A stretch of 17,064 nt of DNA. It comes from an uncultured Pseudomonadota bacterium (GTDB lineage Bacteria; Myxococcota_A; Bradymonadia; Bradymonadales; GCA-2716585). The translations under genes were made by a program, and so were the position numbers. Numbering within the stretch: position 1 is the first letter of the stretch; each line of letters starts with the position of its first letter. The notes under the pieces are model-generated. The model was not told where the DNA came from, ran no database searches, and worked only from the letters and a program-made list of their open reading frames with translations. The stretch is from positions 1-17,064 of the forward strand of contig CALBXO010000197.1 of the NCBI GenBank assembly GCA_937890335.1, in the 5' to 3' direction. This document shows positions 1-7,255 of the stretch, in pieces.

Positions 1-3000
1 GTCTGTATCCAACCGGTGGAAGACCCGGCGCGCCAGGGTCCATCCGCTTTGGTCTGGCTCGCCGGGGCCGGCCAGCAGCTCGCGGAGGGTCGCGCGCATG
101 GCTTCGTCCAGCGGCGCCTGGGGAGGGCGATCAAAGGGCCAGTGCGTGAACCCGGGCGGGGCCGCGGCCCCAACGACGGGATTATACGAGCCTCTGGGGT
201 CAGTCGGGTTCTCCCTCAGGTAACGGTCCGCGGCGATCAGCTCCTCCACTGAGATGCCCAGCCCGCACGCGAGGTCCGCCGCCGATACGCCGGTACAATC
301 CAGCAAGGATTGCAGCGCCCCCGGCGTGGCGCCAGGGAGTTCGGTCCGGTTGATGTTGGCGTCGGGATCGCAGGGGAACATGTTGGCGACCGTGTTGAAC
401 GCGCCGAGAATCTCCAGGAAGTGGGGCATGCCGGCGTCGTACAGGATGTCGTCGAGATGTTTGAAGTCCGCGGCCTCGAGAAGCTCCCAGTCCTCCAGCG
501 GAAACACGGTGGCGCCGTCTTCGCGGAAACCGATGTCCTCCAGGACAGAATTGACCGCGTGACGGGCCGATTCATTGGCGGACTCCATGGTGGACAGGCG
601 GGTGGACGTCTTCATGTGGTTCCCGGCCGCCACGAGTCTGCCGAACGCCACGTCGTACTTGTACAGCCCGTTGGCCTGAAGGTTCCCAGGCCGCCGCTCC
701 CAATCGCCGATCAGATTGAGCAGGTAGCCTTGGTCGGGCGTCTGCGGGAAGGAGTCGATGTGGTAGTACCGCGGCTCTGGCAGGTTGCCCCGTGGCGTCA
801 GCTCGCGGAGGGGGTGCGCCGAGCGACCGTCGAGGGCCATGCGCAGCTGCCTCCACACCTCGGCGGCGAGTTGGTCCGGATCGGTGACGCTGGACGCCGC
901 GCGGCCCACCAGTGCGCTGCTCTGCCAACCCGGCGGTAGCGGGTTCGGAGCCGGCTGTACCGCCTGGTCCCACGCGCCGATCACGACGGAGATCTGCCCC
1001 CTGATGTTGAAGTCGCGCCGCATGCGCAGTCGCCGCTCGGCATCCCAGAACTGGTCTTGCGAGATAGAACTGAGCGCCCAGTCGCTGTCGGGGTAGACCA
1101 CGTGACCCCGAAGAATCTTGATCTCGTTCTCCACAAAGAACTGGATGCCTGAGATGACGCCGAAGGACGTCTGCACCGGGAAATGGCGCAGCCGCCACAT
1201 GTCTCCCGTTGGCGTCCACCATGGATTGACGGACTCCGTGTTCTCCACAATCTGCCGGGCGGAGCGCGCCGGGACCGCCATGACCATGATGGGGTCGTCC
1301 ACCTGCGTCACGTTCAGGCCGTTGTGCACCTCGGCGTGGAGGATGCTCTCGGAAGTGAGCCCGGTGGCGGGCTTAAGAACAAGATGTTCCAGCCGCTCAC
1401 CGAACTTGAACTTGACGCCCAGCTTCTCCAGCCACGCCTGCCATTTGTCGAACCACGCCTCGCTGCTCGGCCCGTTGAGCGTGCGGTCGGTCTGCCCGCC
1501 GAGGCTGACCTGGTCCTGCAGCAGCTGCACAAAGACCAGCCCCTGGGTCCGGGCGTCCGCGCGACGGGAGTCGAGGGCGACGAGCACCTTGGGGAGGTCG
1601 TCCAGGTAGCGCTGAAAACGAGGGCTGTAGCTCGGTCCGTCCACATAGTCCCACCACGAGATCTTCTCGTAGTCCGCCCGGCGCTTGGGCCCGCTGGTGA
1701 GGAACTGGAATGTCTTGAGGCTGAACAGCGCGATGTCGCGCATATCGTAGCCCAGGGACACCAGCGTAGTCTGGAGGAAGCTGAAGACCTCGGCGATGCT
1801 CAGGTCGAACTTCCGGTTGAAGATGTGCGTCCTGAACCCGTCGTTGAGCGCGACGCCCTGCCGGTCTGTGGACGTCAGGTTGTCGGCCACGGTGCGCCGG
1901 TGCGAAGCCGGGTCCGGGATGCGCGACATGGTGTCCGTCACATGGCGGTAGAAAGACGGAAAGAAGCGGAACCCATGCTCCCCCGCGATCATGCTCGTCT
2001 GCGGCGGGTCGAACTCTCGAACGAGCTCACCGGCGTGAAGGTCGACTTGCCAGATGCGGTGCGGGTAGGTGCCGATGCGGCGCGACGCTACGTACGCAAA
2101 CTCGTCGGTCAGAACCATGCTGTTGATCGGCGCGTCCAGCTCGAAATTCCACAGCGGCTTCAGAGGCTCGGATGCCTGCCAGATCGACACCGTCCCGCCC
2201 GTGGAGCCAGTGCCGATGAACTGACCTGCCGCATCCGACGCGACCACGGTCACGTCGCCTTTGGGGGCTCCTCCCTGGTAGTCGACGGCGGGCGCCGTGC
2301 CCGAGAACGAGGTGACGGGGCCATTCGCGCTGGCGATCGCCGTCCGGTTGCCGGACAGCGTAGCGGAGGTCACGGCGGCGAAGGTGATGACCGTGGTGCC
2401 CGCGCCAGCGGGAAACGCGAGAAAGGCATCCGAGCGCACTGCGGTCCCAGCGCCAAAGTCATCGATGGCACCCGACAGCGCCGGGGTGTTCGCGGACAGG
2501 GGGAGCCAGACCCGATTGAGCGAGTACGCGCCCGTGAACCCTTGCTGCCACCGCGCCACGGTGCCGTCCTCGTCGCCAGTGAGGAGCCAGGCCCCGTTTG
2601 GCGCGGACGCTACCATGGTGACCGGCACGGTGTGCAGGCCGGTCAGATCCCAACCGACGCCTGTCTCCCGCACGTCGACAACGCGAGGGACCGTATCGCC
2701 AAAGGAGGCAAACACCAGGCGCTGGGCGTCCTCGTCCATCGCGAGGGCGCGCACCTCCGTCGGCAGCAGCGGCGGCGCGTTTTGACTCAGCACCCGGACA
2801 AACCGGCCAGTGGGGGTGTACCAGACACCGATGCCCGCGGAGCCAGCCACGAGAATGGAGCCGCCCTTGCCGCCCACCGCCAACTCGATGGTGCAATCGT
2901 CCGGCTGGAGCCGCGTCCGCTGCGCGGTTGTCTGGGCCGGTGGCGCTGTGGCGTAGCTCGAGCGGGCGAGCCCACCGAGCTGGTGGGACGCCTCGTAGAC

Positions 3001-3108
3001 CGTGACCGAGAATCCGCGGTCCGCGAATTCGTGGGCGGCGGTGAGGCCAGCGATGCCGCCGCCAAAAATGGCGACGTTGACCTGGCTCAGATTCAGCGGA
3101 TTGCTCAT
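1..3108 (-). CDS. Large flavin-binding amine-oxidase/phytoene-desaturase-like oxidoreductase with a WD40-like (beta-propeller-type) insertion. The N-terminus is complete (ATG 3108-3106). The C-terminus runs off the window start, so the protein is longer than 1035 aa.
   Basis: The minus-strand frame at pos mod 3 = 0 has no stop from 3108 down to 1; no stop-terminated ORF is listed in that frame, and my hand translation is continuous. The N-terminus MSNPLNLSQVNVAIFGGGIAGLTAAHEFADRGFSVTVYEASHQLGG is a GxGxxG dinucleotide-binding fold followed by the GG of amine oxidase/CrtI proteins. An insertion follows with WD-like repeats (GDEDGTVARWQQG, GSTGGTVSIWQASE). The amine-oxidase core then resumes (AGEHGFRFFPSFYRHV), and the C-proximal FAD-contact motif is present (HMKTSTRLSTMESANESARHAVNSVL). 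Third-position GC is high. The ATG overlaps the upstream gene's stop as ATGA. Confidence 0.6.
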   Translation of the reverse strand, partial: MSNPLNLSQVNVAIFGGGIAGLTAAHEFADRGFSVTVYEASHQLGGLARSSYATAPPAQTTAQRTRLQPDDCTIELAVGGKGGSILVAGSAGIGVWYTPTGRFVRVLSQNAPPLLPTEVRALAMDEDAQRLVFASFGDTVPRVVDVRETGVGWDLTGLHTVPVTMVASAPNGAWLLTGDEDGTVARWQQGFTGAYSLNRVWLPLSANTPALSGAIDDFGAGTAVRSDAFLAFPAGAGTTVITFAAVTSATLSGNRTAIASANGPVTSFSGTAPAVDYQGGAPKGDVTVVASDAAGQFIGTGSTGGTVSIWQASEPLKPLWNFELDAPINSMVLTDEFAYVASRRIGTYPHRIWQVDLHAGELVREFDPPQTSMIAGEHGFRFFPSFYRHVTDTMSRIPDPASHRRTVADNLTSTDRQGVALNDGFRTHIFNRKFDLSIAEVFSFLQTTLVSLGYDMRDIALFSLKTFQFLTSGPKRRADYEKISWWDYVDGPSYSPRFQRYLDDLPKVLVALDSRRADARTQGLVFVQLLQDQVSLGGQTDRTLNGPSSEAWFDKWQAWLEKLGVKFKFGERLEHLVLKPATGLTSESILHAEVHNGLNVTQVDDPIMVMAVPARSARQIVENTESVNPWWTPTGDMWRLRHFPVQTSFGVISGIQFFVENEIKILRGHVVYPDSDWALSSISQDQFWDAERRLRMRRDFNIRGQISVVIGAWDQAVQPAPNPLPPGWQSSALVGRAASSVTDPDQLAAEVWRQLRMALDGRSAHPLRELTPRGNLPEPRYYHIDSFPQTPDQGYLLNLIGDWERRPGNLQANGLYKYDVAFGRLVAAGNHMKTSTRLSTMESANESARHAVNSVLEDIGFREDGATVFPLEDWELLEAADFKHLDDILYDAGMPHFLEILGAFNTVANMFPCDPDANINRTELPGATPGALQSLLDCTGVSAADLACGLGISVEELIAADRYLRENPTDPRGSYNPVVGAAAPPGFTHWPFDRPPQAPLDEAMRATLRELLAGPGEPDQSGWTLARRVFHRLDTD

Positions 3109-3611
3109 GGGTGGCTCCCAAAGCGCAAGATCGGTGTAGCGGCGGGGGCGGCGCGGAAGGCGTGCAGGAGACCTGGGAAGCCCAGGCTTCGCACGGCGCC
3201 GTGGAGGTAGAATCCGAGTCCGTCGTGGAAGGCCAGCAACCCGTCCACGCTTCCACGCAGGATCAGTTCGTCTGCCATCACGGCGCTCATCAGGGTGTGC
3301 GTGCCGTCCACAAGCGCCAGGATGGCGCGGCGGTCTGTTGTGACCTCGACGCTCGGCGCCGGCTCCAGCGCGCGCTGCGGAGACAGAGGTACGGAGCGCG
3401 TGGGGCGCAGGTCGACGTCGTCGCTGTGGAATCGAAGATCCAACACGTCCTCGGCGAGTCGCAACCGCACGTGCCGCCCCTCCAGACATCCACACATCCG
3501 GCCAAAGGCGTCAGGTTGTTGCTCGCGCAACACGCCCAGGGAACGGGCCACGAAGTCGGCGGGACCGTCGGGGGTCAATGCGGTCACGCCGCCAAAAACG
3601 AGCTCACTCAC
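3105..3611 (-). CDS. SCP2 (sterol/lipid carrier) domain protein. The preferred start is GTG 3611-3609, which overlaps the upstream stop as GTGAGTGA. An alternative start is ATG 3497.
   Basis: The C-terminal region TTDRRAILALVDGTHTLMSAVMADELILRGSVDGLLAFHDGLGF matches the SCP2 fold signature (..msG.L.i.G....a.kl..l). The frame has about 74% GC3 between 3611 and 3497, arguing for the longer GTG start. The TGA stop at 3107-3105 overlaps the downstream ATG. Confidence 0.55.
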   Translation of the reverse strand: MSELVFGGVTALTPDGPADFVARSLGVLREQQPDAFGRMCGCLEGRHVRLRLAEDVLDLRFHSDDVDLRPTRSVPLSPQRALEPAPSVEVTTDRRAILALVDGTHTLMSAVMADELILRGSVDGLLAFHDGLGFYLHGAVRSLGFPGLLHAFRAAPAATPILRFGSHP

Positions 3612-4662
3612 CCAGAAACTCAAACACGGCGCTGCCGTGTAGTTCGACCGGCTCGCCACCCACCTGCCCGCTGAGGTGCACGCGTCCGCTCACTTCGTTG
3701 ATGATCGTCACATTGTACTCCCGCTCGCCGGGTATGACGACCTGCGCGACATCTTCGCTGTCGAATCGGCCGACCACCTGGTCCCCGCGGACTTCGGCCC
3801 GAAAGTGCAGCTGCTCTGGCACGTCCGTGGGTTGTTCGGGGTGCAGAAGTCCCATCACGGCAGGGACCTTGACCACGGAGCGCGGGCGCAGGTAGCCGGC
3901 GTGCCAGACCTCCATGTCGTGCTCGCGAAACGTGCGTCGCTGGACCCCGTCGTGCCATAGGAACAGCCCCTGGGCCATGGTCCGGCTCCGCGCGCGGTTG
4001 GTCAGCCGGACAAAGACCATGCTCCACGGCTCGGCCGGGTCATCGGGCAGCCCAAAGCCCCACTCCCAGGCGAAGTCGTCGCCCCACTTCCATCGGCCCC
4101 AATTGTGGTCGTGGTACGACGGCGCGTCGGACAGCGTGTGCTCCACACCGTCGACCCGAACGGTCCCCGTCGCCAACGAGCGCGGCAGGACGCACCAGTG
4201 GATCGGCGGGCCGGTCTCCAAGGGAATGTTGGGCGCGAGCACGGGCATGCATGCGGGCGCGAGGCGCAGGTCACAGGCGATGTCGCGCCCGCGCGCCCGC
4301 GCGCGTATCGTGTACGCCCCGTCCTCGTAACACACGAGGTTGCGCCCCATTCGCATGTGGATCTCGCCGGTGCGCACGTCCACATCCTGCGCCCGGTAGG
4401 TGTCCACGTCCCCCGTCCAGCCACGCTCGTCGCGGACCAACAGTGTGATGCGGGCCGTCTCCGCCCAGGGCCCAGCGTGGTGCCCGCCGGGCCTTTGGCC
4501 ACCGACCGGCTCGTCGACGACGCTGAAATTGACCAGCACGTCCAGGCCCGGTGCGTGCACAGCAAAGTGAAGCCACTCCTTGTGACCGCCGGGGCCGCCT
4601 GCGAGGGCCGGGGACCGGCGCAGGTGGTCGAATCGACGTATGGCGGAGCCGTAGACGTCCAT
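3604..4662 (-). CDS. Hypothetical protein, tentatively of the CrtC/AttH-like (carotenoid 1,2-hydratase, lipocalin-like) family.
   Basis: A 352-aa ORF with high GC3. Its ATG 4662-4660 overlaps the upstream TGA as TGATG. The N-terminal GHKEWLHFAVHAPGLDVLVNFSVVDE resembles the CrtC (Y/E)WWYFD motif, and the Trp-rich HDHNWGRWKWGDDFAWEWG segment is also present. The family call is made from memory only. Confidence 0.55.
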   Translation of the reverse strand: MDVYGSAIRRFDHLRRSPALAGGPGGHKEWLHFAVHAPGLDVLVNFSVVDEPVGGQRPGGHHAGPWAETARITLLVRDERGWTGDVDTYRAQDVDVRTGEIHMRMGRNLVCYEDGAYTIRARARGRDIACDLRLAPACMPVLAPNIPLETGPPIHWCVLPRSLATGTVRVDGVEHTLSDAPSYHDHNWGRWKWGDDFAWEWGFGLPDDPAEPWSMVFVRLTNRARSRTMAQGLFLWHDGVQRRTFREHDMEVWHAGYLRPRSVVKVPAVMGLLHPEQPTDVPEQLHFRAEVRGDQVVGRFDSEDVAQVVIPGEREYNVTIINEVSGRVHLSGQVGGEPVELHGSAVFEFLGE

Positions 4663-4910
4663 CAGCGCAGCAGCGTTCGCTCGGTGTGGTCGCTCACGCC
4701 CTGAAGACTGTCGCCGCAGTCGCCAGCCGGCGGCGCGTTCTGCTGGTTAAGCTCGCCAGTCACGGAGTCCGTCAGGTGGATGAGCCCAACGAGGAAATCG
4801 GTGAGGGCCTCGGACTCGGCCGTCGCGGGCTCGGGGTCCGCCGTCTCCCAGAGACCACCGCGCAGGGTCTCATTCACCGACGCGAGGCCCAGCGCCAAGT
4901 GCAACACCAT
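4662..4910 (-). CDS. Small hypothetical protein (82 aa), sequence MVLHLALGLASVNETLRGGLWETADPEPATAESEALTDFLVGLIHLTDSV....
   Basis: High-GC3 coding-like frame from ATG 4910-4908 to TGA 4664-4662. The stop overlaps the next gene's ATG as TGATG. The listed 208-aa ORF in this frame is junk upstream of 4910. Confidence 0.4.
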   Translation of the reverse strand: MVLHLALGLASVNETLRGGLWETADPEPATAESEALTDFLVGLIHLTDSVTGELNQQNAPPAGDCGDSLQGVSDHTERTLLR

Positions 4911-4932
4911 ATTGCGGTCGTCGAAGGAGTCG

Positions 4933-5379
4933 CTATGCCGGTGGATGATCGGTCGTTTGCCCAAAGGGCCCCTCCTGCGGGTCAAAGAGACCTGCGAGCA
5001 GTGCCTCGGCGTCGGGGTGGGCGGCGGCGGCCATGAACGCCTCCACCAGCGAGGACGGCAGCGCGCCGTCCCCCTCCTCCTCCAGGATGTTGAGCGTGAC
5101 ACCCTCCCAGATGACGCGCCCTCGGCGCAGCAGCTCGGAGCGGGCGACCTGCGCGCGAAGCGCGGCGCCCTCGGGCGTCTGCGCGTGGGTGCGGCCCTCC
5201 CTGACGAGGGCACGGAACAGCGCCTGGGCGGCGGCAGGGTGCTGCAAGAGGAGTCGTTGGCCAGCGCGCAGACTGTCGGACAGCGCATCGGACGGTGACG
5301 GCTCGGGATGCTCCGACTCAGCCGACGCCTCGCCGGTTTCCTCGGTCTTGAACGCCAGAACTGGAGCGTCCGCGGTCAC
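4933..5379 (-). CDS. Hypothetical acidic protein (~148 aa). The GTG start at 5379-5377 overlaps the upstream TGA stop (GTGA).
   Basis: The frame of listed ORF 4933..5490 is protein-like only downstream of 5379 (TADAPVLAFKTEETGE...LVEAFMAAAAHPDAEALLAGLFDPQEGPFGQ). The listed ATG at 5490 would overlap the preceding gene by 115 nt, and the region it adds is R/S-rich junk. There is no ATG in frame after 5379. GC3 is moderate to high. Stop is TAG 4935-4933. Confidence 0.45.
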   Translation of the reverse strand: MTADAPVLAFKTEETGEASAESEHPEPSPSDALSDSLRAGQRLLLQHPAAAQALFRALVREGRTHAQTPEGAALRAQVARSELLRRGRVIWEGVTLNILEEEGDGALPSSLVEAFMAAAAHPDAEALLAGLFDPQEGPFGQTTDHPPA

Positions 5380-6225
5380 TTGGCCGTCTTGGCGGCTGCT
5401 TTGGCGCGATTCTCGTCGCGAAACTCGACCATGAGCTCCATCATGATGGAGCGCATCTCGTCCTTCATGGTCTCGCGGCTCGGCGGGCAAGGCTCGGGTT
5501 TTGGTGTGGGCTCAACCTTTGCCTCGGGAACGCACCCGTCGGAGACAAAAAGGTCCAGGCACAGGGTGTGACAGACACCGCAGCCCTTGGCCGAGAGCAC
5601 GGCGTCCCAATGGGCGCAGTCACACCAGCAGTCGCCGACTGTTGTGATCTCGATCCATAGCTCCACACACTGGAAGGCCGCCAGGCAGACCGGGCTGCTG
5701 ACCTCGTCCCCGTGGGCGTCGAGGAAGCGGACCGCGGCCTCACACTCGTGAGGATCGGCGCCTTTCACGCCGCCGCGCATGACAAATGGCGTGACGGACA
5801 GCTCGATCTCCACCGTGGTGGCGTTGTCGTTGCGCAGCACGAACTTCGACGCCGCTGTGCCGCCAGCCTTCACGATGAAGCTCAGGCACTCCGACGGCAC
5901 CGGGGCCAGCGAGCTGCTGGGGGGGGCAACAATCGCCGGGAACTTCGTGGTCCGCCGGCACCTTGCTGCAGCCGCATTTGCACTTCGGCTCGCCGCAGCA
6001 GGACACCGGCGCGCAGCCGCATCCGGAGCCCTTTAGCAGGCCCAGCATTCTCTCGTAGAAGCTCAGTTGAAGCCGGGCGAGATCGAAGAGCGCGTCCGCG
6101 CCGTTGGGGCACGGGTTGCACGCGGACTTCGGGGCGCACCCGGAGGCCTGACCGAGCAGCGCAGCCAGGGTCTTCATCTGGATCTCGGAGGCCTTGTGCA
6201 GTGTCTCGTACTCGTTGCGGCTCAT
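5376..6225 (-). CDS. Cys-rich hypothetical protein (~283 aa if contiguous) with apparent frameshift at a C8 tract (plus-strand G8 at 5919-5926); possible pseudogene, phase-variable gene or homopolymer sequencing error. CxxC, CGC, CKCGC, CWCDC and CGVC motifs suggest metal binding.
   Basis: The N-terminal part (ATG 6225; MSRNEYETLHK...CCGEPKCKCGCSKVPADHEVPGDCCPP) is in the frame of listed ORF 5740..6357, which degrades into Arg-rich junk after the C8 run. The C-terminal part (..SECLSFIVKAGGTAASKFVLRNDNATTVEIELS...CWCDCAHW...KAAAKTAK*) is in the +1 frame, listed as ORF 5376..5900. Removing one C from the 8-C run joins the two frames. Both parts are Cys-rich and have high GC3. Confidence 0.5.
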
Positions 6226-6229
6226 CGCT

Positions 6230-7255
6230 CTACCGGTTTCGCTGGACCACGCGATCCACGATCTGCTCGAGGAAGGCGCGGTGCACGGACGGCTGGAGCC
6301 AATCCGTGGTGTTTGAGAGAATTTCGCGGGCGTTCGAGGCCCTACTGTATGCCACATTTCTCGCGTAGTCGACGCTCTGCGTCCGCTCCACGATGGCGTG
6401 GAGTTCCCGCACTTCTTCGTCGGTCTTGTCCGCCCGTGACTTTTGCAGGATCTCCTGTGCGCGCGTCGTGTCCGACGGGTTCGCCGTCCTCATCGCGTGC
6501 ATCAGGATCAGCGTGTGTTTGCCCTCCCACAGATCGCCGAGGTGCTCCTTGCCGTACGCGCCGTCGCCCACTTCGAGGTTGAGCACGTCATCCACGATCT
6601 GGAACGCGACGCCGAGCTCCACCGCAAACGCCTCCAGCGTCTTCATCTTGTCGTCGGCGACGCCCTTGATGATCCCGCCGATGAGGATGGGCGCCAGAAA
6701 GGTGTACCAGCAGGTCTTCTTGTGGACGAGGTGGAAGTAGTCCTCGTCCGACAGGTCCCAGCGCCCCTCCCGAATCCAGAACAACTCCAGAGCCTGCCCC
6801 TCGGCGCTCTCGCGCGCCATGTCGGCCACCACTCGCAGAATCCGCAGCGCCTTGCCGAGCCCGAGCAGCTCCATATTGTCGAGCAACGGGGACAGGGACA
6901 GCGCCAGCATGGCGTCGCCGACATTGATGGCGATGGGAGCGCCATACTTGCGGTGCAGCGTGTTGTCGCCGCGCCGCATCAGCGACCCGTCCTCGAAGTC
7001 GTCGTGAATCAGGAACGCGTTGTGGTAGAGCTCGAGCACGGCGGCGGTGCGCAGCGTCGCCTCCAGGTGGCCGCCGAGCGCCCGGCAGGTCGCGATGCAA
7101 AGCGCCGGTCGGAACCCTTTGCCCTCGCGCAGGGGGTAGTCGAGCATGAGCTCGTAGAGGACCGGGCCGTAGCGGGGGTCCTTCGGGATGATGTCGCGGA
7201 TTTCCTCCAGCACCAGCGCCCGACACTCGGCGAGATAATCGTCGAATTCGTTCAT
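6230..7255 (-). CDS. Trans-polyprenyl diphosphate synthase (short-chain, FPP/GGPP-synthase-like isoprenyl diphosphate synthase).
   Basis: The first Asp-rich motif LIHDDFEDGSLMRRG has F at position -4, consistent with a short-chain product. The second motif is FQIVDDVLN. The length is 341 aa from ATG 7255-7253 (MNEFDDYLAE). That ATG overlaps the thrC TGA (7254-7252) as ATGA. The listed 408-aa ORF N-terminus (MRDRRWT...) is Arg-rich junk. Confidence 0.85.
   Translation of the reverse strand: MNEFDDYLAECRALVLEEIRDIIPKDPRYGPVLYELMLDYPLREGKGFRPALCIATCRALGGHLEATLRTAAVLELYHNAFLIHDDFEDGSLMRRGDNTLHRKYGAPIAINVGDAMLALSLSPLLDNMELLGLGKALRILRVVADMARESAEGQALELFWIREGRWDLSDEDYFHLVHKKTCWYTFLAPILIGGIIKGVADDKMKTLEAFAVELGVAFQIVDDVLNLEVGDGAYGKEHLGDLWEGKHTLILMHAMRTANPSDTTRAQEILQKSRADKTDEEVRELHAIVERTQSVDYARNVAYSRASNAREILSNTTDWLQPSVHRAFLEQIVDRVVQRNR

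What the first reader, a model, noticed from the sequence alone, without database searches (positions are those of the whole stretch)
1..3108. Protein longer than 1000 aa with an amine-oxidase/CrtI flavin fold interrupted by a WD40-like beta-propeller insertion
After the N-terminal GxGxxG...YEASHQLGG FAD-binding beta-alpha-beta unit, the chain departs for about 300 residues containing WD-like motifs (GDEDGTVARWQQG, GSTGGTVSIWQASE). It then returns to amine-oxidase-like sequence (GEHGFRFFPSFYRHV) and to the C-proximal flavin-contact motif (TMESANESARHAVNSV). It continues for more than 130 further residues and out of the window. Propeller insertions inside a Rossmann-type flavoenzyme are rare. 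Such an insertion could serve as a protein- or membrane-docking platform for the lipid module.
Basis: partly seen in the sequence, partly recalled or inferred. Interest (0 to 1): 0.6.

Follow-up and report, generated by a model that had tools for sequence, protein, structure and literature searches.

The report
WD40 propeller inserted in PDS-like flavoenzyme
One uninterrupted gene encodes a phytoene-desaturase-like flavin enzyme with a seven-bladed WD40 propeller spliced into a surface hairpin of its FAD-binding domain, a very rare architecture, and it is the last gene of a widespread but uncharacterised isoprenoid-lipid gene cassette.

Summary

The architecture is very rare. One cluster representative among 1.84 billion matches the insert end to end, and none of 185,579 species genomes holds a close relative.

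The new context is that the insertion point is a family-wide hotspot. Relatives carry nothing, 25-35 residues, an OmpA-like domain or other 200-330-residue modules at the same place.

The gene closes a conserved cassette: short-chain prenyl-diphosphate synthase, three small unknowns, an AttH/CrtC-fold enzyme, an SCP2-like protein, then the oxidase. A convergent Ser/Thr-kinase/AAA_16 gene usually follows.

The most likely function is FAD-dependent desaturation of a prenyl-derived lipid, with the propeller as an exchangeable docking module. Substrate and binding partner are unknown.

The parts
1..3108 (-). Flavoenzyme gene, first 1036 codons of about 1183; it runs off the window at position 1
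   Evidence: No stop codon. Single GC3 phase. Homologues P0001-P0003 are 1183-1210 aa. The C-terminal remainder was recovered after the scaffold gap in L090.
2959..3108 (-). Residues 1-50: N-terminal beta-alpha-beta FAD/dinucleotide-binding unit (GxGxxG, the E of VYEAS, the GG motif)
   Evidence: NAD_binding_8 and Amino_oxidase hits. G16/G18/G21/G45/G46 are invariant in 117 sequences. pLDDT is 96-98.
1984..2958 (-). Residues 51-375: inserted WD40 beta-propeller. Seven repeat units start near residues 79, 117, 159, 203, 248, 283 and 328. Only the repeats at 159-193 and 283-316 are canonical.
   Evidence: Pfam WD40 32.1 bits, above 27. PkwA WD40 is the best PDB sequence hit. All-beta AF2 model. 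Foldseek matches WDR5 at E 6e-12 over about 335 columns. The insert profile hits more than 100,000 WD40 proteins. Internal repeats found. dN/dS is 0.43-0.57, and 0.5-0.9 for residues 201-285.
529..1983 (-). Residues 376-860: remainder of the PDS-like FAD/substrate-binding core, from GEHGFRFF to TMESANESARHAVN
1..528 (-). Residues 861-1036: start of a clade-specific, mostly helical C-terminal extension, about 320 aa in the full protein. Just past the window it carries an EF-hand-like acidic loop and the conserved tail LLxQILSPSPFSFLFR(R/K).
   Evidence: Alignment. Helices with pLDDT 43-75. Relatives have only 80-130 aa after the TME motif. EF-hand_6 reaches only E 0.2. Tail recovered.
3105..3659 (-). 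Gene E (164-184 aa), probably SCP2-like lipid-binding. Its TGA overlaps the oxidase ATG (ATGA), and GGGAG lies 8-12 nt upstream.
   Evidence: Sequence. Sub-threshold SCP2 hits in 3 of 6 orthologues, best E 0.018. Fused to the N-terminus of the oxidase in P0060 (31% identity, E 2e-15). Syntenic in all cassettes.
3604..4662 (-). Gene D (352 aa): AttH/CrtC-fold two-barrel enzyme with an invariant YHDHNWG motif
   Evidence: AF2 pLDDT 93.4. Foldseek matches AttH 2ich at E 2e-11 and TM 0.70, then kievitone hydratase, the Diels-Alderases CghA/Fsa2/Phm7 and 25-phosphosteroid lyase. 326 homologues; those the sources name are nearly all called 'hypothetical protein'. Invariant columns.
4662..4964 (-). 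Gene C (about 100 aa), unknown function, conserved cassette member
   Evidence: tblastn and HMM synteny. No Pfam, NCBIfam or PADLOC hit.
4933..5379 (-). Gene B (about 135-148 aa), unknown function, conserved cassette member
   Evidence: No PDB sequence match.
5376..6225 (-). Gene A (about 271 aa in relatives; Cys-rich N-terminal half in this clade; possible Ig-like C-terminal half). In this window it is split by a frameshift at a C8 tract (G8 on the + strand, 5919-5926).
   Evidence: tblastn matches in two frames. The sequence reads intact if one C is removed. The ENA scaffold L090 is 100% identical across this region. Weak Ig-domain hit, E 0.01.
6230..7258 (-). Prenyl-diphosphate synthase, first gene of the cassette. 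FARM motif is NAFLIHDDFED with Phe at position -4.
   Evidence: Pfam polyprenyl_synt 195.6 bits. Best NCBIfam matches are short-chain IdsA and GGPP synthase, all below cut-off. Motif. Precedes the cassette in unrelated genomic neighbourhoods.

Best explanation
The gene encodes a single polypeptide of about 1183 aa. Its catalytic body is a plant-type phytoene-desaturase/HpnE-like FAD enzyme.

Right after the N-terminal beta-alpha-beta unit and the GG motif, the chain leaves at the tip of a beta-hairpin. In relatives that hairpin is a roughly 12-residue loop between GGKARS and GEHGF. The chain then builds a seven-bladed WD40 propeller of 325 residues, in which blades 4-5 are degenerate, and returns to complete the flavin fold.

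The gene is translationally coupled (ATGA overlap) to the end of a co-directional cassette: short-chain prenyl-diphosphate synthase, A, B, C, an AttH/CrtC-fold enzyme (D), an SCP2-like protein (E), then the oxidase.

Inferred mechanism:
1. The synthase supplies a prenyl chain.
2. D hydrates, cyclises or eliminates on it.
3. E carries the lipid.
4. The flavoenzyme introduces a C=C bond, or otherwise oxidises the lipid, through FAD. FAD is reoxidised by a quinone, as in PDS.

The propeller does not take part in catalysis. It is an exchangeable surface module that tethers the enzyme to a protein partner. Candidates are other cassette proteins or the adjacent Ser/Thr-kinase/AAA_16 regulator.

What is shown: the architecture, the folds, the insertion site, the rarity, the cassette synteny and the gene fusions. 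What is inferred: the chemistry, the substrate, the quinone dependence and the docking partner.
For: - One continuous frame with uniform codon bias.
- Pfam Amino_oxidase, NAD_binding_8 and WD40 all score above their cut-offs.
- AF2 model: pTM 0.75, core pLDDT above 90.
- The base-family member P0033 has rice PDS as its best PDB sequence relative (E 1e-9), aligned collinearly at the GGK and C-terminal FAD motifs.
- All FAD-motif residues are invariant across 117 relatives, and core dN/dS is 0.17-0.25.
- The insert profile matches more than 100,000 WD40 proteins, but only one representative end to end. Seven internal repeats.
- Hotspot: the GxGxxG-to-GEHGF distance is 50, 74-86, 165-257, 359 or 376-383 in different relatives. 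OmpA domains map inside that interval.
- Cassette synteny in more than 20 loci across Myxococcota, Binatia and Actinomycetota.
- Fusions E+oxidase and D+E.
- D has the AttH / kievitone-hydratase fold. E has recurrent SCP2 hints.
- The kinase/AAA_16 neighbour is present in the window's own lineage.
- Prokaryotic WD40 genes are frequently linked to Ser/Thr kinases (PMC5587647).
- The PDS mechanism (FAD, quinone, ping-pong, membrane-facing cavity) is taken from PMC5703498.
Against: - No cassette member has been characterised, so the substrate and product are unknown.
- No head-to-head synthase (SQS_PSY) is present, so the substrate is not phytoene or squalene.
- NCBIfam HpnE/PDS/ZDS/CrtD scores are far below their cut-offs and rest mostly on the N-terminal 40 residues.
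- The propeller is only moderately constrained, and residues 201-285 evolve almost neutrally and fold with low confidence. A precise binding function for the whole propeller is therefore not assured.
- The model coordinates could not be inspected, so the position of the propeller relative to the substrate tunnel or membrane face is unknown.
- The SCP2 assignment of E is below threshold.
Confidence: 0.6

Rival explanations
1. The propeller is a gate or cap over the active site, as in prolyl oligopeptidase, where a seven-bladed propeller inserted into the hydrolase domain filters substrates. Here it would control lipid or quinone access to the flavin.
For: The topology is the same: a propeller inserted between a short N-terminal piece and the rest of the catalytic domain. 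The comparison with prolyl oligopeptidase rests on established knowledge, not on a test made here.
Against: The insertion point is in the FAD-binding beta-hairpin next to the dinucleotide-binding unit. In PDS the substrate cavity opens in the membrane-binding domain instead (PMC5703498). The same loop holds unrelated modules (OmpA-like, helical) or nothing in active-looking relatives, which argues against a specific gating role.
Confidence: 0.1
2. The propeller is a decaying passenger domain with little or no present function, tolerated because the hairpin tip is a permissive site.
For: Insert dN/dS is 0.43-0.57 against 0.17-0.25 for the core, and residues 201-285 reach 0.5-0.9. Only 2 of 7 repeats are canonical. 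Residues 241-283 have pLDDT below 50. The site tolerates many different insertions.
Against: The 325-aa insert is kept with identical boundaries and no internal deletions across four lineages diverged to 60% identity, with saturated dS. Blades 1-3 and 6-7 have dN/dS of about 0.3-0.5 and many invariant residues. Keeping about 1 kb of useless coding sequence is unlikely.
Confidence: 0.15
3. The flavoenzyme is not a desaturase. It could be a non-redox FAD enzyme (a hydratase like OhyA, or an isomerase like CRTISO or the P. acnes fatty-acid isomerase), or an amine or thioether oxidase such as prenylcysteine oxidase.
Confidence: 0.2
4. Artefact: a chimeric assembly, or two or three separate genes mistakenly read as one.
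For: None found. The only irregularities are a scaffold gap just beyond the window end and a frameshift in another gene.
Against: No stop in 1036 codons and a single GC3 phase. Identical sequence in separate ENA assemblies. Three diverged homologues from JGI, ENA and Logan with the same boundaries. The two flavin-fold halves assemble into one PDS-like domain.
Confidence: 0.01

Closest known systems
Plant/cyanobacterial-type phytoene desaturase (PDS; rice PDS, PDB 5mog) and its relatives ZDS and HpnE
   Different: About 15% identity. Below every NCBIfam equivalog cut-off (HpnE 50 against 283). No phytoene or squalene synthase in the cassette. Carries a 325-aa WD40 insert and a roughly 320-aa C-terminal extension that PDS lacks.
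The uncharacterised 590-aa 'FAD-dependent oxidoreductase' family (COG3349-type annotation; e.g. Corallococcus P0033/P0037/P0065) and its cassette-linked subgroup
   Same: 33-38% identity over the whole core. Identical invariant residues: GEHGFR, RR, and T..T..TME.A.E..R.A.N. The cassette subgroup shares the whole seven-gene arrangement.
   Different: Base members have no insertion (the distance from GxGxxG to GEHGF is 50 residues), and most are not in the cassette. Cassette members mostly carry an OmpA-like or other module where this protein has a WD40 propeller.
Bacterial WD40 propellers such as the PkwA WD40 domain (PDB 5yzv), and WDR5
   Same: Best PDB sequence match to the insert (E 1e-6). 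WDR5 is matched over about 335 columns by Foldseek. Seven repeats.
   Different: Those are terminal or stand-alone domains with regular repeats. Here the propeller is nested inside another domain, five of the seven repeats are degenerate, and the middle is poorly constrained.
[not shown]
   Same: A protein-docking module nested in a flavin amine-oxidase fold, leaving the catalytic domain intact.
   Different: The Tower domain is a coiled coil inserted at a different point of the fold and binds CoREST. The two have no sequence or fold relation and no shared pathway. This is an analogy only.
Prolyl oligopeptidase (a seven-bladed propeller inserted in an alpha/beta-hydrolase; own knowledge)
   Same: Nested topology: a short N-terminal catalytic piece, then the propeller, then the rest of the catalytic domain.
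   Different: Different catalytic fold. There the propeller covers the active site, and here there is no evidence for that.

Membership tests
Flavin amine-oxidase / PDS superfamily (Pfam PF01593, GR2-type FAD enzymes) | N-terminal beta-alpha-beta dinucleotide-binding motif GxGxxG, with an acidic residue ending beta-2 and a following GG motif | tested here: met
   GGGIAGL...VTVYEAS..LGG at residues 16-46. NAD_binding_8 scores 38.8 against 21.9. Invariant in 117 sequences.
Flavin amine-oxidase / PDS superfamily (Pfam PF01593, GR2-type FAD enzymes) | Whole-protein Pfam Amino_oxidase score above the gathering cut-off | tested here: met
   41.5 bits against 19.8, in two stretches.
Flavin amine-oxidase / PDS superfamily (Pfam PF01593, GR2-type FAD enzymes) | Contiguous two-domain (FAD-binding plus substrate-binding) fold, including the C-terminal FAD-contact helix | tested here: met
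   [not shown]
Flavin amine-oxidase / PDS superfamily (Pfam PF01593, GR2-type FAD enzymes) | Bound FAD and redox activity | not testable with these tools
   Needs purified protein.
Specific desaturase equivalogs (HpnE TIGR03467, PDS TIGR02731, ZDS TIGR02732, CrtD, CrtI family TIGR02734) | NCBIfam score at or above the curated cut-off | tested here: not met
   HpnE 50.1 against 283, CrtD 28.5 against 549.7, and so on; the matches cover only residues 11-51. Base-family member P0033 scores 100.6 against 283 for HpnE.
WD40 repeat beta-propeller (Pfam PF00400) | At least one repeat above the Pfam gathering score, plus profile-level homology to WD40 proteins | tested here: met
   WD40 scores 32.1 against 27 at residues 159-187. 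The insert profile hits more than 100,000 WD40 proteins at E<=1e-3, and 585 at E<=1e-30.
WD40 repeat beta-propeller (Pfam PF00400) | Six to eight four-stranded blades closing into a propeller | tested here: inconclusive
   The AF2 model has about 25 strands, and Foldseek aligns WDR5 over about 335 columns (TM 0.55). Seven repeats occur at 38-45-residue spacing. But residues 241-283 (blade 5) have pLDDT below 50, and ring closure could not be inspected.
WD40 repeat beta-propeller (Pfam PF00400) | Regular GH...WD signature in most repeats | tested here: not met
   Only the repeats at 159-193 and 283-316 are canonical. The other five are weak or degenerate.
Cassette-linked subgroup of the 590-aa oxidoreductase family | Position as last gene after prenyl synthase, A, B, C, D and E, with E overlapping or abutting the oxidase start | tested here: met
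   All six upstream genes were found in order in the window. ATGA overlap.
Cassette-linked subgroup of the 590-aa oxidoreductase family | Convergent Ser/Thr-kinase/AAA_16 gene downstream | tested here: met
   It lies outside the window but is present in the same lineage: L090 15128..16792 (366 bits), plus L002 and the P0001 contig. It was not found in L001.

The most novel reading that the evidence does not exclude
The cassette (prenyl synthase, A, B, C, AttH-fold enzyme, SCP2-like protein, PDS-like oxidase) is an unrecognised isoprenoid-lipid pathway. It spans several phyla, including Myxococcota, Binatia and Actinomycetota (with Mycolicibacterium among them), and is under Ser/Thr-kinase/STAND (AAA_16) control.

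In this reading the hairpin insertion of the oxidase is the pathway's exchangeable regulatory or tethering socket: OmpA-like in most lineages, WD40 here. The WD40 version would bind the neighbouring kinase or a phosphorylated partner, coupling lipid desaturation to signalling.
Probability: 0.25. Interest if true: 0.7.

Novelty: new variant of a known kind. Interest (0 to 1): 0.55.

Why it matters
Domain insertions into Rossmann-type flavoenzymes are uncommon, and a WD40 propeller nested in a PDS-like desaturase has, as far as these searches show, no described precedent.

More useful than the oddity itself is what it exposes. One surface hairpin has been used repeatedly as a socket for different modules. 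It sits in an enzyme that always ends a conserved, wholly unannotated seven-gene isoprenoid cassette. That cassette occurs in cultivable bacteria (Mycolicibacterium chlorophenolicum, Sorangium sp. So ce542, Nannocystaceae ST9), which gives an experimentally tractable route to a possibly new bacterial lipid.

It also offers a natural example of modular tethering of a membrane-lipid enzyme, which is relevant for engineering scaffolds onto carotenoid and terpenoid desaturases.

Tried and rejected
1. The search for homologous proteins with the insert alone returned nothing. This is a tool artefact of the word-based candidate selection, because P0001-P0003 are 48-64% identical over the insert. The exhaustive profile search was used instead.
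2. The P0004 insert (341 aa, same site, same cassette) was compared with the WD40 profile. hhalign gave probability 2.6%, with only a 54-residue N-terminal stretch at 28% identity. Homology is therefore unproven.
3. PADLOC defence models gave no meaningful hit for any cassette protein, so the defence-system idea was dropped.
4. Pfam, NCBIfam and PDB sequence searches of A, B and C gave nothing significant.
5. The family-2 encapsulin cargo prenyltransferase model scored 174 bits against a cut-off of 450 and was rejected.
6. The Cys-rich protein A was considered as a prenyl-cysteine substrate for a PCYOX-like oxidase. It was rejected because the Cys richness is restricted to this clade and A orthologues elsewhere have few or no Cys.
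7. The 1148-aa gene call in scaffold L090 is an artefact of reading across a 10-N gap.
8. Taxonomy of the source could not be obtained: cluster look-ups carry no organism names.
9. The AFDB50 fold library was unavailable.
10. Literature searches for the architecture, COG3349 and AttH-terpene clusters found no description.
Full report
**Observation**

The feature is a minus-strand gene starting at ATG 3108..3106. Translation of 3300..1 shows no stop in the 1036 codons from that ATG to the window edge. GC at the third codon position stays at 0.80-0.94 in one phase from position 1 to about 3000, through the putative insertion as well, so there is neither a frameshift nor a compositional seam. The 675-aa plus-strand ORF 1183..3210 is the usual high-GC shadow ORF. 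Pfam gives Amino_oxidase (41.5 bits, cut-off 19.8, two stretches), NAD_binding_8 (38.8 against 21.9) and WD40 (32.1 against 27, residues 159-187).

**Boundaries and reality of the insertion**

A search of 5.8 billion proteins found three full-architecture homologues: P0001-P0003, 1183-1210 aa, 72/64/60% identity. It also found a large family of about 590-aa FAD oxidoreductases that match only about half of the query. Aligning them places the extra segment precisely between GGLARS (residue 50) and GEHGFRFF (residue 376), so the insert is 325 residues. Sequence identical to the window occurs in contigs from three ENA assemblies. The four lineages come from JGI, ENA and Logan data, so the architecture is not an assembly chimera. 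Scaffold L090 has a 10-N gap exactly at window position 1. Beyond it, the correct frame continues for about 146 aa and ends LLAQILSPSPFSFLFRR*, matching P0001-P0003, which gives a full length of about 1183 aa. The 1148-aa gene call across the gap is an artefact.

**Folds**

**The propeller**

A profile of the four inserts was searched exhaustively against 1.84 billion cluster representatives. It hit more than 100,000 WD40 proteins (585 at E<=1e-30), so the insert is a true WD40 relative. Only one representative, P0002, which is one of the four inserts in the query profile, matched end to end (548 bits). The best PDB sequence hit is the WD40 domain of the actinobacterial kinase PkwA. Iterative internal-repeat searching finds units near residues 79, 117, 159, 203, 248, 283 and 338, which is seven blades at 38-45-residue spacing. 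Only two of them, 159-193 and 283-316, are canonical. Nei-Gojobori estimates are rough because dS is saturated at about 1. They give dN/dS of 0.17-0.25 for the core, 0.43-0.57 for the insert as a whole, and 0.5-0.9 for residues 201-285, the same stretch that folds with low confidence. The propeller is thus retained and constrained at its two ends, but its middle blades are degenerate.

**Rarity**

A pattern scan of one genome for each of 185,579 species recovered 564 family members, the best at only 35-36% identity. No close relative of this WD40-bearing clade is therefore present in any species-representative genome. Literature searches found no description of such an architecture.

**The insertion site is a hotspot**

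The distance from GxGxxG to GEHGF was measured in the relatives. It is 50 residues in the base family, 74-86 in some members, 165-257 in many, 359 in this clade and 376-383 in P0004 and P0097. In P0010 and P0014 a Pfam OmpA domain maps inside that interval, at residues 97-192 and 82-156. Other members hold unrelated alpha/beta or helical segments, some with acidic low-complexity runs. The WD40 propeller is therefore one of several modules plugged into the same hairpin. The 341-aa insert of P0004 could not be shown to be homologous to it.

**Gene context**

Upstream and co-directional in the window are these genes:
- a prenyl-diphosphate synthase (6230..7258; Pfam 195.6 bits; best NCBIfam matches are short-chain IdsA and GGPP synthase; Phe at position -4 of the FARM motif);
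- three small unknown genes, A, B and C;
- D (3604..4662, 352 aa);
- E (3105..3659).

The stop codon of E overlaps the oxidase ATG (ATGA), and GGGAG lies upstream. The same order is conserved around P0001-P0004, P0006, P0014 and P0097. HMMs of the cassette proteins find it in 24 of 89 fetched loci, among them Myxococcota (Polyangiaceae, Labilithrix, Nannocystaceae ST9), Binatia and Actinomycetota (Mycolicibacterium chlorophenolicum, Mycobacterium spp., Sciscionella). Most insertion-free family members, such as those of Corallococcus, are not in the cassette.

D folds with pLDDT 93.4 into the two-barrel AttH fold. Its best matches are AttH 2ich (E 2e-11, TM 0.70), kievitone hydratase, the decalin-forming Diels-Alderases and 25-phosphosteroid lyase. 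These are enzymes that hydrate, cyclise or eliminate on hydrophobic, often prenyl-type, substrates. Its 326 detectable homologues have essentially no informative annotation: the names given are almost all 'hypothetical protein'.

E gives recurrent sub-threshold SCP2 hits in 3 of 6 orthologues. Two fusions tie these genes together. The N-terminal domain of P0060 is an E homologue fused to the oxidase (31% identity, E 2e-15). In L010, D and E are one 491-aa protein.

A convergent protein of about 1200-1270 aa with Ser/Thr-kinase and AAA_16 domains follows the oxidase in most non-actinobacterial cassettes, including the window's own lineage (L090, L002, the P0001 contig). Actinobacterial cassettes instead have a large AAA_16-type ORF upstream.

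**Interpretation**

The shown facts support a PDS-like FAD enzyme acting on a prenyl-derived lipid made and handled by the cassette. By analogy with PDS, FAD abstracts hydride and proton from a CH-CH bond inside a hydrophobic cavity reached from the membrane, and FAD is then reoxidised by a quinone (PMC5703498). This chemistry is inferred, not tested.

Several points argue that the propeller is a surface docking module rather than part of the catalytic machinery:
- It sits at a hairpin tip of the FAD-binding domain.
- The FAD and core motifs remain invariant.
- The same site accepts unrelated modules or none.

Its partner is unknown. The association of bacterial WD40 genes with Ser/Thr kinases (PMC5587647) and the conserved kinase neighbour make that protein a candidate. 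The cassette proteins themselves are another.

Rival readings are a gating cap in the style of prolyl oligopeptidase, a decaying passenger domain, or a non-desaturase chemistry. None can be excluded, but each is less well supported, as set out in the rivals section.

**Novelty and score**

Each fold is known, and nested domains are a known phenomenon; the LSD1 Tower domain and the prolyl oligopeptidase propeller are functional analogies drawn from general knowledge. The specific combination, the modular hotspot and the unannotated cassette are new as far as these searches reach. I rate it a new variant of a known kind, with interest 0.55.

Noticed in passing
window 5919-5926 (G8 on + strand, C8 on the coding strand), within gene A at 5376-6225 (-): The cassette gene A is split into two frames at a homopolymeric C8 tract, and removing one C restores an intact orthologue-length ORF. 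The ENA scaffold L090 is 100% identical across this region and carries the same split gene call, as does L091. It could be a pseudogene, phase variation or a programmed shift.
   Followed up: partly
window 3604-4662 (-): The 352-aa 'hypothetical' protein D has a confident AttH / kievitone-hydratase / Diels-Alderase fold with an invariant YHDHNWG motif. It defines a family of about 326 sequences that carry no Pfam annotation apart from one Tocopherol_cycl (PF14249) tag.
   Followed up: yes
P0060 residues 1-140; L010 7529-9004: Two fusions of the Rosetta-stone type: E fused to the N-terminus of the oxidase, and D fused to E. Both link the three last cassette genes functionally.
   Followed up: yes
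P0010 residues 97-192, P0014 residues 82-156, and many relatives: An OmpA-like (peptidoglycan-binding-type) domain is nested in the same hairpin of an apparently cytoplasmic flavoenzyme that has no signal peptide. Its ligand there is unexplained.
   Followed up: partly
L090 15128-16792 (-), just beyond window position 1; also L002, L004, L008, L009, L012, L013, L018: A protein of about 1200-1270 aa with Ser/Thr-kinase and AAA_16 domains is encoded convergently just after the oxidase in most non-actinobacterial cassettes. Sigma-54 activators with FHA or GAF domains lie nearby in L008 and L010.
   Followed up: partly
just beyond window position 1 (L090 after the N gap; P0001-P0003 C-termini): The clade-specific C-terminal extension has an EF-hand-like acidic loop (for example DRDGDGAVAGED in P0002; Pfam EF-hand_6 reaches only E 0.2) and a strictly conserved tail, LLxQILSPSPFSFLFR(R/K), that looks like a sorting or anchoring peptide.
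   Followed up: no
window 7252-13302 (-): A co-directional amino-acid block precedes the cassette, with overlapping stop and start codons: aminotransferase, bifunctional aspartokinase/homoserine dehydrogenase (846 aa), homoserine kinase, threonine synthase. The same arrangement is seen in L001 and L002 but not around P0004, P0014 or P0097, so it is lineage-specific synteny rather than part of the cassette.
   Followed up: partly
window 13878-15020 (+) and 15160-16920 (-): An SPFH/Band_7 gene lies on the plus strand (Pfam 83 bits). A 586-aa minus-strand ORF has no family hit. The interval 13302-13880 has lower GC (about 0.63) and looks intergenic.
   Followed up: no
L071 3589-6633 and 6504-9788: One Kofleriaceae contig carries two tandem oxidase paralogues, each with a different helical insertion of about 230-240 aa at the hotspot and no cassette genes nearby.
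   Followed up: no
(query window:1984-2958:-): The word-indexed protein search returned no hit for the insert alone, although 48-64% identical homologues exist in the same database. This is a sensitivity artefact worth knowing for low-complexity, G/A/T-rich beta-propeller queries.
   Followed up: yes
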